Source: a virus
Taxonomy: Duplodnaviria > Heunggongvirae > Uroviricota > Caudoviricetes
IMG/VR virus record: IMGVR_UViG_2778261249_000012
Coordinates: 1 to 25,852 of that record
Length of the DNA: 25,852 nt
Reading direction: 5' to 3' (one strand)
In this document: positions 1 through 5,848 of the stretch, piece by piece
Position numbering within the stretch: position 1 is the stretch's first letter
Layout: the number at the start of each line of letters is the position of its first letter
Made by a program: the position numbers and the translations under genes
Notes under the pieces: generated by a model
Databases searched by the model: none
The model's input: only the letters and a program-made list of their open reading frames with translations
Told to the model about the DNA's origin: nothing

Positions 1-1167
1 TCAGGCCTTATGGTGGAAATAATCACTCAGGCGGGAAAACATGCCGCCTTCCCCGACAGATTCCAGGGTAACCAGCGGCCAGTGCGCCACCTGTTTATCA
101 CGGTCGTAAAGTTCAATTTCCCCTACCCGCTGATGGGCGCTAATTGGCGCGGTGAGCTCTTTACCATCAAGGGTATATTTGGCTTTGATATGTGGAATTT
201 CGGCTTTCGGTAGCACCATCCAGAACTCTTGTTCCGTTCCCAGGTCGATATTTTCTTTATCGCCATACCAGATGCGTTCCGTTCCGACCTTTTTCCCACG
301 GTGCAAAATTTGCACCGTAGTAAAGTTTTGTTGCCCCCAACGCAGTAATTTTCTTGCCTCTTCCTCACGACCTTTTGCACTGTCAGCCCCCATTACCACT
401 GCAATGAGACGACGCTGCCCATCTACAGCCGAAGCAATGAGATTAAACCCGGCACCAGAAGTATGACCCGTTTTCAGGCCGTCAACATTCATGGTTTTAT
501 CCCACAACAACCCGTTACGGTTTTGCTGGGTGATACCGTTCCAGGTGAGATTTTTCTCACTGTACATATGATAAAACTCGGGCTCGCCGTGGATGATAGC
601 GCGAGAAAGCACAGCTAAATCATAAGCCGAGCTATGCTGGCCAGGTGCATCCAGACCATGCACTGTTTCAAAATGCGTATCATTGAGATGCAGCTTCTCG
701 GCATAGTTGTTCATCATTTCAACAAACTGCCGTTGCCCACCGGCAATATAGTCAGCCAGAGCAACACAAGCGTCATTTCCGGAATCCACAATTAAACCAC
801 GGCTTAAATCACGTACCGATACGCGATCGCCCTCTTTCAAAAACATCAGTGAAGAACCGACAAACACCGGATTATCTTTCGCCCACGCATCGCGCCCCAC
901 GGTGACAATATCGTCTGGCGTAATGCGATGACTATCGATAGCGCGATCCACGACATAACCCGTCATCAGCTTTGTCAGGCTGGCGGGATTGCGCTGTTGA
1001 TGCTCATTACCCGCGGTGAGGATCTGACCGGTGGTGTAATCCATCAGTACCCAGGACCCGGCATGAATCTGTGGAGGCTGAGGTGAAAAAGGAATGTTTT
1101 CCGCCGCAAAACCAGACGATAAGTTAAAAACGAACAAAGAAGCAGCAATAATAAGACGGCGTTTCAA
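1..1167 (-). CDS. dacD: D-alanyl-D-alanine carboxypeptidase DacD (PBP6b), host gene, complete
   Basis: Translation matches E. coli DacD along its length (signal peptide then SLTKLMT active-site region). The six-frame ORF starts two codons upstream at a TTG; I place the start at the TTG encoding MKRRLII (1167), giving 388 aa. Stop at 1..3. Confidence 0.9.
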   Translation of the reverse strand: MKRRLIIAASLFVFNLSSGFAAENIPFSPQPPQIHAGSWVLMDYTTGQILTAGNEHQQRNPASLTKLMTGYVVDRAIDSHRITPDDIVTVGRDAWAKDNPVFVGSSLMFLKEGDRVSVRDLSRGLIVDSGNDACVALADYIAGGQRQFVEMMNNYAEKLHLNDTHFETVHGLDAPGQHSSAYDLAVLSRAIIHGEPEFYHMYSEKNLTWNGITQQNRNGLLWDKTMNVDGLKTGHTSGAGFNLIASAVDGQRRLIAVVMGADSAKGREEEARKLLRWGQQNFTTVQILHRGKKVGTERIWYGDKENIDLGTEQEFWMVLPKAEIPHIKAKYTLDGKELTAPISAHQRVGEIELYDRDKQVAHWPLVTLESVGEGGMFSRLSDYFHHKA

Positions 1168-1375
1168 CAGCAAACCCTCAGGAGTTTCAAATAGCTGTTC
1201 TTTTTACGGAAATACTTATGAACTGGCTGGAATAAAGTGCAAGAAAATGTGACTACTCTCTCATTTTTATCTGACATGATCTGTTGCCACTCGCTGTCAA
1301 ATTGTTGCGCTAAAGCTGATTAGCACGGTGATATTTGATACTCTGGCAGACAGCAGAAATAACGGATTTAACCTA

Positions 1376-1438
1376 ATGATGAATGACGGTAAGCAACAAT
1401 CTACCTTTTTGTTTCACGATTACGCGCAACACCCCTGA
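1376..1438 (+). pseudogene. sbcB: 5' fragment of exonuclease I gene sbcB, interrupted by prophage insertion
   Basis: ATG ATG AAT GAC GGT AAG CAA CAA TCT ACC TTT TTG TTT CAC GAT TAC translates to MMNDGKQQSTFLFHDY, the SbcB N-terminus as I recall it; the reading frame then diverges and hits TGA at 1436..1438. It is divergent from dacD with a 208-bp spacer. Confidence 0.6.
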
Positions 1439-1445
1439 GAACCGC
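1415..1445. other. approximate prophage attR junction (host-phage boundary)
   Basis: This is the point where the sbcB reading frame stops matching SbcB. The exact core cannot be set without the attL or attB sequence. Confidence 0.3.
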
Positions 1446-1862
1446 CATGAACAAGGGTTTCATGATTTGTGATTTTAGTTTGGTACGCAATTTGGTACAC
1501 AACACAATTTTCACCTCAGTTGGTAGTCATCAAACTCACCATAACGAGCATCGTTGATGATGTATGTGATCACCACAAATATCACATCTGGACTAGTTCC
1601 GTCTTCATGCGCAGGTATCTGTTCATGACTACCTGTCTGCAAACCAGTAATAAGCTATTACAGTGTGATAGTGATGCATCAACTACGATAAATGCAGAGA
1701 AATGATGCAGTGGTGGGCGGATTGGCTTGATGAAAAGGTGGAGTGATCAGCCTTAACCACTATCTAACAGCACAAAGCATTGCAATCCAGTACAAAGCTT
1801 TGTGTGTATAAGTTTTTAATAGTTTATAAATACTTTTGTTTTATTAAAAAAGCACCTAAACA

Positions 1863-3905
1863 TCATATTTTATATTCAACACAAAATATTATACCGTAAG
1901 TGCCTGTTAAATCACCTCTTTTTAACGATGTGCCGTCTGACTTAACAAAAATAACCCCACTGTTTGATATCACTTGAGCCCTTATTAGAGGTGGGACACC
2001 TCCGTTAGAAAAATTAATTTTTCCAGCGCCACTAAATGAATTTGTGATAACAGAGTCAGAAACAGGATTTAAAGGGACTGAAACTACAATTTCATCAGAT
2101 GATGCACCTGTTGATATATCTGTTGTTGCAATTTGACAATTAACAATAACGCGACTTCCCAATACGTTATATTTACCGCTATATGCGCTAAGATTTATAT
2201 TATTTGAGCCATATTTTAAAATTGGTTGATACGTTACATGCGTACTGTTTATATTAAATGATGATGAGTTTCCTTCGAATAATGTTGTTGGAGAAGTTTG
2301 CTTGCTTACATCAAATGCATCTACTGTTATACTTGGAGATGTAGCATTATGAAATGTATTCCCTGTAATAGAAAGTCTCTGGCAGTTAGCACCTCTAAAT
2401 ATTAAGGCGGTAGCACCTGAAAGATAGCTCTGTTCAAAAATATTATTACTTATAGTTACAGAATCAGATTGAGCACCAACATGTACAACATGTAATGTAT
2501 TGTACAATGTGGTATTTCCGGTAACCAGCAATCTCTCGGCGGAACCTGAACATATAACAATACCATGCATATATTGATTATCTTCTGATGGTAAGAAACT
2601 CCTATTGTAAAAATTCCTTAATATATTATTAGAAATTATTGAATCAACTATTCTCTTTGACTCAACAAAACCATACGCAAATGAAGCAATTGATGTATTT
2701 CCGCTAAATAAGGAATGCTGAATAGTGCAGTCTGCCCCAATAAACGCCCTATCCATTTGAAATATATCGTTATTTATAAAGCTGACATCATTTATAAAGT
2801 CTTTTTCAACACCAGATCCTGTGACCCTAATGCCGACCCCAACTGTATCAAACCTTGTATCTGATATATGATAATTTCTCATCCCTGTTTCAGCTGTGTT
2901 GTTACCAGTACCCCAAGAAGACACATCGCATACAATTTCCAGTGCTGTTCCAGAAAAGAACAACAGACCACCTGCGCAATGGAATCCTCTACCATGTAGT
3001 TTAACAATCGTTTCTGCTCCACCTAGATGCGCCGTAGAGTTTATTCTTACATCACAATCTGCTGATCCGTTTGACGGCTTTACTTCCAACAGCGAATAAG
3101 ATCTTTCTGATATGTCAGCGTTTCTTTTTAATGAACCAAGCAGCTCAATGTCTGTAATTATAATGTACCCTACATTGCTAAATATACATGATTCACCATA
3201 TGTGTCCGGTGTAAAATAAATTCTTGTATTAATAGAGCCAGCACCTCTAATCTGCAAACCAAAACCAAGAGATGATGGAATAACCAATTGTTTAACTCGA
3301 TAATTACCTGGTGGGACGTATATTTCTCTTACACCACCATTATAAATTGTAGGTATATTACATATTGCATTTATGGCATCTTGAAAAAAGGATGTGTCAT
3401 CGCTCCCTTTTTGTGTTTTTTCATTCCAATCTCCAATAGCGCCAAAATCTTTGACATTTACAGATACTAGATAGTTATTTAATATATCAATTTCATTACC
3501 AACCGTTGTATCTCTGTGTTTAATAAAATAGGCACCATTCTCACTCTCAAGATCTGCCCTTAACTGATCGGGATCATACTTAAGCACATTAGGAAAATAG
3601 AATTGCTGTGCACCGTACGCATCATAAACAGCCATAGAATGGCCTTGCACAGTAACGAATTTGGCAATCTGTCCGTTATATACCGGATATCCAGCAGCGT
3701 TAATGATGATTGGTTGAGAAACAGGAACATGAGAGCCGTCTTCGTTCTCTACATAAACCGGAATCTGGTTTTCAGTATTTACCGGGTCAGTGTCAATTTT
3801 ACCGATATAAATTTTGCCATTGGCTACGGCTTTAAAAGAACGAGCCATAGTGAAGAGTTGCGAAGGCATACTCACTACAACATTGGCATTTATTGAATCT
3901 GTCAT
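1863..3905 (-). CDS. tailspike protein: P22 gp9-like N-terminal head-binding domain plus a divergent beta-helix receptor-binding domain
   Basis: 680 aa, ATG start with a GGAG RBS. The first ~110 aa ([18 protein letters not shown]...[10 protein letters not shown]...[11 protein letters not shown]...NVLKYDPDQ) match the conserved head-binding domain of P22 and HK620 tailspikes. The remainder is rich in N, S, G and T, consistent with a parallel beta-helix. The DNA for that part is visibly AT-rich. Confidence 0.9.
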
Positions 3906-5261: not shown

Positions 5262-5516
5262 ATGGCTAGAGACGATCCGCACTTTAACTTCCGTATGCCT
5301 TTGGAAGTAAGAGAAAAATTGAAATTAAGAGCCGAGGCTAACGGAAGGTCAATGAACTCTGAGTTATTACAAATCGTTCAGGATGCACTATCAAAACCAT
5401 CACCGATTACAGGATATCGCGACGAAGCTGAACGCTTGGCTGATCAGCAGGCTGAGCAGTTCAAGGCTATAGTGTTTGAGACACTTAAAAAGATTTATGA
5501 AAAGGATTTGAAATGA
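5262..5516 (+). CDS. mnt: Mnt repressor (maintenance of lysogeny; represses Pant)
   Basis: ATG at 5262 preceded by GGAGTGA. Translates to MARDDPHFNFRMPLEVREKLKLRAEANGRSMNSELLQIVQDALSKPSP... (84 aa), near-identical to P22 Mnt. The 207-aa six-frame ORF is an upstream extension I do not support. Confidence 0.92.
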   Translation: MARDDPHFNFRMPLEVREKLKLRAEANGRSMNSELLQIVQDALSKPSPITGYRDEAERLADQQAEQFKAIVFETLKKIYEKDLK

Positions 5517-5848
5517 GATTTCTATCACTGTTCTTGTTAGCAGTTGTCTCTTCTTCCAGTGCTGAGCTGCGCGAGCTTCAAACGGGTAATGACCTTCTTT
5601 ACAACATTCAACAAGGTAAAAAGGGTGATGATTTTTCATCGCTTTACATTACTGGATATTTGCGCGGAGTAACTGACTCATTGATACTAATTGGTTCTCT
5701 ATGTCCTCCTGATGGCGTTGACATGTATCAATACACCGATATCGTTGAGAAATATCTAAACAAAAACCCAGAATCAAGAAATGAGAGCGCAGTTATACTA
5801 ACCGCCCTAGCAGTAGGAAAAACATTTCCGTGCAAAAAGAATCAATAA
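5513..5848 (+). CDS. small secreted (periplasmic) protein of unknown function; accessory gene in the sieA slot
   Basis: 111 aa. ATG overlaps the mnt stop (ATGA), with AAGGA RBS. N-terminal signal peptide MRFLSLFLLAVVSSSSA, predicted cleavage before ELRE. Two Cys in the mature part (SLCPP and FPCKK). Visibly AT-rich compared with flanking phage genes. Confidence 0.6.
   Translation: MRFLSLFLLAVVSSSSAELRELQTGNDLLYNIQQGKKGDDFSSLYITGYLRGVTDSLILIGSLCPPDGVDMYQYTDIVEKYLNKNPESRNESAVILTALAVGKTFPCKKNQ

What the first reader, a model, noticed from the sequence alone, without database searches (positions are those of the whole stretch)
1168..1862. Prophage inserted in the 5' end of sbcB next to dacD; attR and possible integrase arm sites
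The host sequence reads dacD (minus), a 208-bp divergent spacer, then sbcB codons for MMNDGKQQSTFLFHDY. After that the frame no longer matches SbcB and hits TGA at 1436..1438, and phage DNA follows (tailspike from 1863). So attR lies near 1415..1445 and exonuclease I is interrupted unless the other junction recreates a functional gene start. sbcB is a known integration locus for lambdoid prophages in E. coli. Within the phage side of the junction there is a direct repeat of TTTGGTAC (1479..1486 and 1491..1498), which could be an integrase arm-type binding site.
Basis: partly seen in the sequence, partly recalled or inferred. Interest (0 to 1): 0.55.

Follow-up and report, generated by a model that had tools for sequence, protein, structure and literature searches.

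The report
Known sbcB prophage junction (attR)
This is the right-hand junction of a P22-like prophage sitting in the well-known sbcB integration site of E. coli. It is an ordinary, already described arrangement, and in related lysogens the phage brings its own replacement start for the gene it splits.

Summary
The window matches E. coli K-12 dacD, the 208-bp spacer and sbcB codons 1-16 at 99.2% identity up to base 1424, and the match then stops. The broken frame ends at TGA 1436..1438.

Bases 1425..~1805 are collinear with the attP region of free phages that carry the "type 2851" integrase (Stx2c phage 2851, 1717, HK140, HK544, mEp234, Sf101). The published 13-bp core, TTTCACGATTACG, lies at 1412..1424. 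About 10.6% of complete E. coli genomes carry this same junction.

In related lysogens the integrase-side junction supplies an in-frame substitute start, MTDTDKQPTFLFHDY|ETFG…, so sbcB is annotated intact there. The window's own attL lies on another contig and was not seen.

The TTTGGTAC pair is very probably two of five integrase arm-type sites. A GTAC-centred motif sits at −202, −179, −168, +71 and +83 from the core. Phage SEN34, whose Int is 61% identical, has a different motif at the same positions to within one base. The Int has an arm-binding domain (PF13356).

Novelty is low. The site, core and phage family are published. The arm-site map and the replacement 5' end are small additions.

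The parts
1..1167 (-). Host dacD (D-Ala-D-Ala carboxypeptidase), left flank of the integration locus
   Evidence: 99.2% ungapped identity to K-12 over 1..1424. K-12 annotation of dacD and sbcB. ORF list.
1168..1375 (.). Native dacD-sbcB divergent spacer (208 bp), holding whatever native sbcB expression signals exist. It is now separated from most of sbcB.
   Evidence: Same length and sequence as K-12 L001 2049..2256.
1376..1438 (+). Orphaned sbcB 5' stub: 16 native codons (MMNDGKQQSTFLFHDY), 4 phage-derived codons (AQHP), then TGA
   Evidence: Translation compared with K-12 SbcB.
1412..1424 (+). 13-bp att core TTTCACGATTACG, identical in attB, attP, attL and attR. It covers sbcB codons F13-H14-D15-Y16 plus the first base of E17. 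Strand exchange happened inside it.
   Evidence: Five-way alignment of attP (mEp234, Sf101), attL (strain E3), attR (window) and attB (K-12). Host-type bases at 1400, 1408, 1409 and 1411 lie just left of it. The core is published as CGTAATCGTGAAA for 2851 and Sf101 and annotated in the mEp234 and 1717 records.
1425..1805 (.). int-distal arm of the type-2851 attP module, the conserved phage side of attR
   Evidence: 343/379 (mEp234) and 341/380 (Sf101) aligned bases are identical to free-phage attP. There is one 67-nt deletion after 1644. Similarity is lost beyond ~1805.
1479..1488 (+). Arm-type site 4 of 5 (TTTGGTACGC), GTAC at +71 from the core start
   Evidence: The same position carries TGTACTT in SEN34 (+72) and AGTACCC in phi349.
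1491..1500 (+). Arm-type site 5 of 5 (TTTGGTACAC), GTAC at +83 from the core start, 12 bp from site 4
   Evidence: The same position carries TGTACTC in SEN34 (+84) and TGTACAC in phi349 and Kp4880-2.
1514..1695 (-). Frameshifted relic (aa 46-129) of a HumD/UmuD'-like S24 gene. This is cargo next to attP and is intact in other lysogens.
   Evidence: tblastn of the intact 129-aa HumD of E. coli PI6 against the window gives two pieces in different frames. The intact copy hits Pfam Peptidase_S24. PGAP marks a pseudogene at this place in relatives.
1863..3905 (-). Tailspike gene, the last late gene of the P22-like prophage
   Evidence: PF09008 head-binding domain, E 9e-65. 95% nucleotide identity to the HK620 tailspike 5' part.

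Best explanation
Bases 1412..~1805 are the attR junction of a P22/HK620-like prophage. It integrated by a tyrosine integrase of the "type 2851" lineage into the 13-bp attB TTTCACGATTACG inside the 5' end of E. coli sbcB (exonuclease I).

**Shown:**
- Host DNA runs to 1424, and the phage's int-distal attP arm follows.
- The native sbcB spacer and first 16 codons are left behind as a 20-codon stub.

**Shown in relatives, inferred for this genome:** at the int-proximal junction (attL) the phage arm carries a diverged copy of the sbcB start, ATG ACA GAC ACA GAT AAA CAA CCT ACC TTC CTC. It is fused in frame through the core to codon 17. The lysogen therefore keeps a full-length ExoI in which only residues 1-9 differ and the protein is one residue shorter.

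**Inferred from comparison:** the two TTTGGTAC(G/A)C copies at 1479..1500 are the two int-distal members of a five-site set of arm-type sites. The other three sit just upstream of int. The N-terminal Arm-DNA-bind_3 domain of Int would bind them to bridge the arms and the core in the recombination complex.
For: **Junction**
- K-12 identity stops at 1424.
- The five-way att alignment shows the window collinear with free-phage attP to the right of the core, and E3 attL collinear to the left.
- The core matches the published 13-bp attP of 2851 and Sf101 and the record annotations.

**Frequency**
- The same attR is in 574 of 5426 complete E. coli genomes, and attL in 582 of 5426.

**sbcB restoration**
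- In strain E3 sbcB is annotated intact at 474 aa, beginning at the phage ATG.
- The listed attL rows are all annotated 'sbcB: exodeoxyribonuclease I'.
- The hybrid is identical to crystallised ExoI from residue 10 on.
- Native SbcB N-termini of other Enterobacterales vary in the same way: MTDSAAQPTFL, MQDSASQPGFL, MNDGKQQPGFL.
- Salmonella phage SEN34 (Int 61% identical) has the same core and its own, different, in-frame start, GTG..MTVKNNSVQNTFLFHDY.

**Arm sites**
- Int has PF13356 Arm-DNA-bind_3, E 8e-18.
- GTAC-centred motifs lie at -202/-179/-168/+71/+83 in the 2851 type and at -203/-179/-168/+72/+84 in SEN34.
- They lie at matching distances from the int ATG in phi349 and Kp4880-2.
- The motif differs with the Int lineage (TGGTACRC, TGTACTYA, TGTACNC), and the flanks do not align.
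Against: - The window's own attL and int were not seen. Its contig (NODN01000039.1, 29.9 kb) ends inside the prophage. An int-side deletion or a damaged hybrid start in this particular strain is therefore not excluded.
- No sigma-70-like promoter and no obvious Shine-Dalgarno sequence was found upstream of the hybrid start. The same scan also finds none in the native spacer, so it says little either way.
- Nothing here tests Int binding to the TGGTAC motif. A lineage-specific excisionase (the AlpA-like gene overlaps int) could in principle co-vary in the same way.
- ExoI activity of the hybrid has not been measured, to my knowledge.
Confidence: 0.88

Rival explanations
1. sbcB is truly knocked out in this lysogen. 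The prophage splits the gene and the downstream part is not expressed, because the phage-borne start lacks a working promoter or RBS, or because the int-side end has been lost in this strain.
For: - attL is not visible for this genome.
- No consensus promoter was found in the 181-bp int-sbcB' spacer.
- The literature routinely speaks of 'disruption' of sbcB.
Against: - A complete in-frame hybrid ORF is present in the attL junction that 582 complete genomes carry. It is also present in free-phage attP.
- An independent in-frame start is kept in the diverged SEN34 attP. That is hard to explain without selection for a working sbcB.
- The substitute N-terminus lies within natural SbcB variation.
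Confidence: 0.1
2. The TTTGGTAC repeats are not Int arm sites. They bind another factor (the AlpA-type excisionase or a host protein), or they are a chance repeat.
For: - An 8-mer repeat alone is only weakly significant.
- No binding data exist.
- The excisionase gene is linked to int and would co-vary with the lineage.
Against: - There are five copies in about 300 bp, on both arms, at positions conserved to within one base across Ints only 61% identical, while the flanks are unalignable.
- From general knowledge of lambda and P22 att sites, excisionase sites normally sit on one arm only.
- Int carries a dedicated arm-binding domain.
- GTAC-type sites lie immediately upstream of the int start. 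From my memory of phage P4, which has the same arm-domain family, Int binds repeats overlapping its own promoter.
Confidence: 0.15
3. 1439..1862 is ordinary host or island DNA, and the break in sbcB is a rearrangement unrelated to site-specific integration.
For: None found.
Against: - The stretch is absent from K-12.
- It is contiguous with int in free virion genomes of mEp234, Sf101, HK140 and HK544.
- The junction falls exactly at the published core.
Confidence: 0.01

Closest known systems
Type-2851 Int/attP module: Stx2c phage 2851, Stx2 phage 1717, HK140, HK544, mEp234, and the P22-like Shigella phage Sf101
   Same: - The same 13-bp core, the same insertion point in the sbcB 5' end and the same int-distal arm (about 90% identity).
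- Sf101, E212 and EC.P3 are also P22-like podoviruses carrying this module.
   Different: - The cargo next to the arm differs. Here it is a decayed humD relic and then the tailspike directly. Sf101 has oacB, PI6 has intact humD plus gtrABC, and mEp234 has a side tail fibre.
- The tailspike receptor-binding domain here has no close relative among deposited phages.
Phage 21 and e14 integration in icd, and tRNA-gene attP sites (named from general knowledge, not tested here)
   Same: attP carries a diverged duplicate of the end of the target gene, so integration swaps that end and leaves a working gene.
   Different: Those elements replace the 3' end. Here the 5' end is replaced, so the phage arm must also supply the start codon and expression signals. 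Those signals were not identified.
Lambda attP, with arm-type sites P1, P2 and P'1-3 bound by the Int N-domain (general knowledge)
   Same: Five arm-type repeats, distinct from the core, split 3+2 between the two arms, with a heterobivalent Int.
   Different: - The arm domain is of the P4 type (PF13356), not the lambda type.
- The three-site cluster is ~170-200 bp from the core and abuts the int start codon.
- int is transcribed away from attP, so its promoter must lie inside the arm.
Salmonella phage SEN34, and the argW-integrating Stx2a phages (phi349, PA28) with Klebsiella Kp4880-2
   Same: Int is 55-61% identical, with the same 3+2 geometry of GTAC-centred sites. SEN34 uses the same sbcB core and supplies its own in-frame start.
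   Different: The arm motif differs (TGTACTYA or TGTACNC). In the phi349 lineage the core is the first 24 nt of the argW tRNA gene.

Membership tests
Type-2851 sbcB-integrating attP/Int module | 13-bp core TTTCACGATTACG at the host-phage boundary inside the sbcB 5' end | tested here: met
   Core at 1412..1424. Host identity ends at 1424. It matches the published attP.
Type-2851 sbcB-integrating attP/Int module | Phage side of the junction collinear with the int-distal arm of free-phage attP | tested here: met
   343/379 aligned bases identical to mEp234 and 341/380 to Sf101 over 1425..1805.
Type-2851 sbcB-integrating attP/Int module | 2851-type tyrosine integrase encoded at the other prophage end, next to the rest of sbcB | not testable with these tools
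   The window and its contig end inside the prophage. The integrase is present in relatives with the same attR, such as strain E3. 582 complete genomes carry the attL junction.
P22-like (Lederbergvirus-type) prophage | Tailspike with the P22 head-binding domain, as the last gene before attR | tested here: met
   PF09008, E 9e-65, residues 4-114. 95% nucleotide identity to the HK620 gene 9 5' part.
P22-like (Lederbergvirus-type) prophage | P22-type order of virion genes: terminase, portal, scaffold, coat, gp4, gp10, tail and ejection proteins | tested here: met
   - The window's ORF sizes match contig L013 gene for gene, including Sf6_terminase, Terminase_3 and P22_portal.
- The window aligns over 77% of its length to the E3 prophage, which is annotated with this order.
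Heterobivalent tyrosine integrase with arm-type sites | Int carries a separate N-terminal arm-DNA-binding domain | tested here: met
   PF13356 Arm-DNA-bind_3, E 8e-18, residues 4-85 of the E3 Int, which is 98-99% identical to the 2851, mEp234 and Sf101 Ints. This Int comes from a relative, not from the window.
Heterobivalent tyrosine integrase with arm-type sites | A repeated motif, distinct from the core, on both attP arms and conserved in position among related att sites | tested here: met
   Five sites at -202/-179/-168/+71/+83. SEN34 has sites at -203/-179/-168/+72/+84 with a different motif.
Heterobivalent tyrosine integrase with arm-type sites | Direct binding of the Int N-domain to the motif, and a requirement for it in recombination | not testable with these tools
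   Needs gel-shift or footprinting and mutagenesis.
Gene-end-replacing attP (icd and tRNA type) | attP carries a diverged in-frame copy of the displaced gene end, so a complete ORF is rebuilt at one junction | tested here: met
   The attP and attL sequence ATGACAGACACAGATAAACAACCTACCTTCCTC plus the core gives MTDTDKQPTFLFHDY|ETFG. Shown in relatives and free phages, not in the window's own attL.
Gene-end-replacing attP (icd and tRNA type) | The rebuilt gene is expressed and functional | not testable with these tools
   The promoter scan was negative. The only support is conservation of an in-frame start in SEN34 and identity to ExoI from residue 10 on.

The most novel reading that the evidence does not exclude
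This integrase clade (2851 type, SEN34, and the argW-targeting Stx2a-phage type) may systematically insert into the 5' ends of host genes and replace their expression signals with the int-proximal attP arm. In lysogens, exonuclease I (or tRNA-Arg CCU) would then be expressed from phage DNA that also holds the three Int-binding sites and the int promoter. That could link the level of a host DNA-repair nuclease to Int occupancy or to prophage state. The evidence does not exclude this, but nothing here shows any regulation.
Probability: 0.12. Interest if true: 0.5.

Novelty: already known. Interest (0 to 1): 0.2.

Why it matters
It matters mainly as a clean annotation. The junction, core and phage family match a published integration system that occupies sbcB in about one in ten complete E. 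coli genomes, including Stx2c phages of O157:H7.

Two small points go beyond the papers I could read.

- **sbcB is probably not inactivated.** The phage swaps in a new 5' end. This matters for anyone who reads occupancy of the site as an ExoI knockout.
- **A testable arm-site map.** The five GTAC-centred sites are defined by position conservation across three Int lineages. This gives a ready model for studying arm recognition by a P4-type Int arm domain.

Tried and rejected
- **The window's own attL.** The look-up of encoding contigs on NinX identified the contig as NODN01000039.1 of GCA_002518295.1. It ends about 370 bp past the window, so attL is on another contig and could not be reached.
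- **The window's genome among complete E. coli genomes.** No complete RefSeq E. coli genome covers 80% or more of the window. Relatives had to be used instead.
- **Promoter and terminator scans.** The int-sbcB' spacer gave nothing. Window 1100..2000 gave no more than chance. My candidates by eye (TTGACG with a 21-nt spacer, TATAAC) were not convincing and were dropped.
- **Hairpin at about 1767..1807, at the edge of the conserved module.** It folds at -13.3 kcal/mol with z = -1.66, and 15 of 200 shuffles fold as well. It is a perfect 14-bp stem in strain E3, by eye, but I make no claim about it.
- **The original phage 2851 paper (Strauch et al. 2008).** It is not held in the library. I cannot say whether the sbcB 5' replacement was already described there.
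- **Core as a universally conserved target.** I considered whether the phage picks the core because it encodes the ExoI catalytic motif. The protein motif is conserved, but the DNA core is restricted to some lineages.
- **ORF 1469..1705 (+) and ORF 1511..1642 (-) as genes.** Both were rejected. The minus-strand ORF is the tail of the humD relic, and it has no Pfam hit on its own.

Full report
**1. Observation**

- dacD lies on the minus strand at the left end of the window.
- A 208-bp spacer (1168..1375) leads to the sbcB ATG at 1376.
- Translation from 1376 gives MMNDGKQQSTFLFHDY, then AQHP and a stop at 1436..1438. K-12 SbcB continues ETFGTHPALD.
- Laid ungapped against K-12 (locus L001), the window is 99.2% identical over 1..1424 and 22% identical over the next 100 bases.
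- TTTGGTAC is at 1479..1486 and 1491..1498.
- ORF 1863..3905 (-) is a tailspike with the P22 head-binding domain (PF09008, E 9e-65). Its 5' part is 95% identical to HK620 gene 9.

**2. What the junction is**

Strain E3 (locus L004) has a related P22-like prophage between dacD and sbcB. Its layout is dacD, the same junction, a humD pseudogene, the tailspike, the late, lysis, nin, replication and immunity genes, the early-left genes, an AlpA-like gene, a tyrosine integrase, and then sbcB annotated as an intact gene.

The int region of E3 is 98-99% identical to that of Stx2c phage 2851, Stx2 phage 1717, the siphoviruses HK140, HK544 and mEp234, and the P22-like phages Sf101, E212 and EC.P3. The mEp234 and HK544 records annotate a 13-bp "prophage attachment site (type 2851)". 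The 1717 record annotates a 13-bp duplication. [quoted passage not shown]

A five-way alignment of attP (mEp234, Sf101), attL (E3), attR (window) and attB (K-12) shows the classic pattern.

- The window follows K-12 up to the core TTTCACGATTACG (1412..1424). It then follows free-phage attP.
- E3 attL follows free-phage attP up to the core and then follows K-12.
- Just left of the core the window keeps the host-type bases at 1400, 1408, 1409 and 1411, where attP differs. Strand exchange therefore took place within the 13 bp.
- The phage arm stays collinear with free-phage attP to about 1805. Identity is 343/379 to mEp234 and 341/380 to Sf101, with one 67-nt deletion after 1644. Similarity is then lost, 57 bp before the tailspike stop codon.

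It is not.

**3. How common it is**

The attR junction (window 1290..1560) is spanned in 574 of 5426 complete E. coli genomes. The attL junction is spanned in 582. Papers on Stx phages list sbcB among the standard O157:H7 insertion sites.

**4. Is sbcB destroyed?**

In free-phage attP and in E3 attL, the sequence just left of the core reads ATG ACA GAC ACA GAT AAA CAA CCT ACC TTC CTC. This is a diverged copy of the sbcB start (26 of 30 bases identical to the host over 1395..1424). After integration it is joined in frame to codon 17, giving MTDTDKQPTFLFHDY|ETFG…. The protein has 474 residues instead of 475.

- Annotation calls this gene intact sbcB in E3 and in all listed attL rows.
- The hybrid is identical to the crystallised ExoI sequences from residue 10 on.
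- A scan of species genomes for DNA encoding FHDYETFG shows that native SbcB N-termini vary in just this way: MTDSAAQPTFL in Atlantibacter, MQDSASQPGFL in Klebsiella, MNDGKQQPGFL in Citrobacter.
- The best argument for selection is Salmonella phage SEN34. Its Int is only 61% identical. Its attP has the same core, preceded by a different in-frame start, GTG ACA GTT AAA AAC AAC AGC GTA CAG AAT ACA TTC CTC.

I therefore think ExoI is retained with a swapped N-terminus.

Three things are not shown.

- **The window's own attL.** The contig, NODN01000039.1 of GCA_002518295.1, ends about 370 bp beyond the window, inside the prophage.
- **The promoter of the hybrid gene.** The consensus scan found none. 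It also found none in the native spacer, so it says little.
- **Enzyme activity.** No tool here can test it.

What remains in the window is an orphaned native spacer plus a 20-codon stub (1376..1438).

**5. The TTTGGTAC repeat**

The repeat alone is weak evidence. TTGGTACRC occurs three times in the window against 0.32 expected. The comparison with other phages is strong.

| attP | GTAC positions relative to the core start | Motif |
|---|---|---|
| 2851 type | -202, -179, -168 (int-proximal arm, starting 8 nt from the int ATG); +71, +83 (int-distal arm, the pair in the window) | TGGTAC(G/A)C |
| SEN34 | -203, -179, -168; +72, +84 | TGTACT(C/T)A |

In SEN34 the flanks are unalignable. In the argW-targeting Stx2a-phage lineage (phi349; Klebsiella Kp4880-2; Int 55-56% identical) TGTACNC motifs lie at the same distances from the int ATG: 14, 38, 49, 281 and 293, against 13, 36, 47, 286 and 298 in mEp234.

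So the geometry is fixed and the motif changes with the Int lineage. That is what binding sites of a phage-encoded protein should look like. The Int carries a P4-type arm-binding domain (PF13356, E 8e-18). The sites lie on both arms, which favours Int over an excisionase. Binding itself is untested.

**6. Other content of 1425..1862**

Bases 1514..1695 (-) are a frameshifted relic, matching aa 46-129, of a 129-aa HumD/UmuD'-like S24 protein. The gene is intact at the same place in other lysogens such as E. coli PI6, where gtrA, gtrB and a third gene follow it.

A hairpin at the module edge is not distinguishable from shuffles in this window.

**7. Comparison with known systems, and novelty**

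The junction belongs to the published type-2851 sbcB integration system, and the prophage is a P22-like mosaic comparable to Sf101. Replacing a gene end through attP works like phage 21 or e14 in icd, or like tRNA-gene sites (general knowledge), but here at the 5' end.

The related argW lineage has as its core the first 24 nt of the tRNA gene. This Int clade therefore seems to favour 5' ends.

The 3+2 arm-site map and the 5'-end replacement are not mentioned in the papers I could read. I could not read the original phage 2851 paper.

**Verdict:** the finding is correct, well explained and of low novelty.

Noticed in passing
window 5513..5848 (+): A 111-aa ORF in the immI-like region, just after an Arc/Mnt-type repressor gene, matches the Rap1a type VI secretion immunity protein family (PF18602, E 1e-14). 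It may be a prophage-borne orphan immunity gene.
   Followed up: no
window 1863..3560 (-): The receptor-binding part of the tailspike (about 565 aa) has no close relative among 50,697 deposited phage genomes. The best hits are 26-30% identical, to Vibrio and Acinetobacter tailspikes. Only the head-binding N-terminus is HK620-like.
   Followed up: partly
window 1514..1695 (-); intact copy at L138 2722..3111: A decayed HumD/UmuD'-like S24 gene sits next to the att arm. The gene is intact (129 aa, starting at the UmuD' cleavage-product position) in other sbcB lysogens such as E. coli PI6.
   Followed up: yes
L015 (phage phi349) 1130..1260; L139 (K-12 argW): Integrases 55-56% identical to the 2851 type, in Stx2a phages and a Klebsiella phage, have an attP core equal to the first 24 nt of the argW tRNA gene. 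Integration would leave the tRNA sequence whole but replace its upstream region with phage DNA.
   Followed up: partly
L004 47387..47578 (+) and 47559..48737 (-): In this module int is transcribed away from attP, and its 3' end overlaps a convergent AlpA-like gene by 20 nt. The int start codon lies 8 nt from the first arm-type site. The int promoter must therefore sit among the Int-binding sites, which suggests autoregulation.
   Followed up: no
These include Citrobacter braakii, Klebsiella michiganensis, Atlantibacter, Cedecea, Siccibacter, a Rahnella, Morganella and two Aeromonas. The attB is scattered rather than universal.
   Followed up: partly
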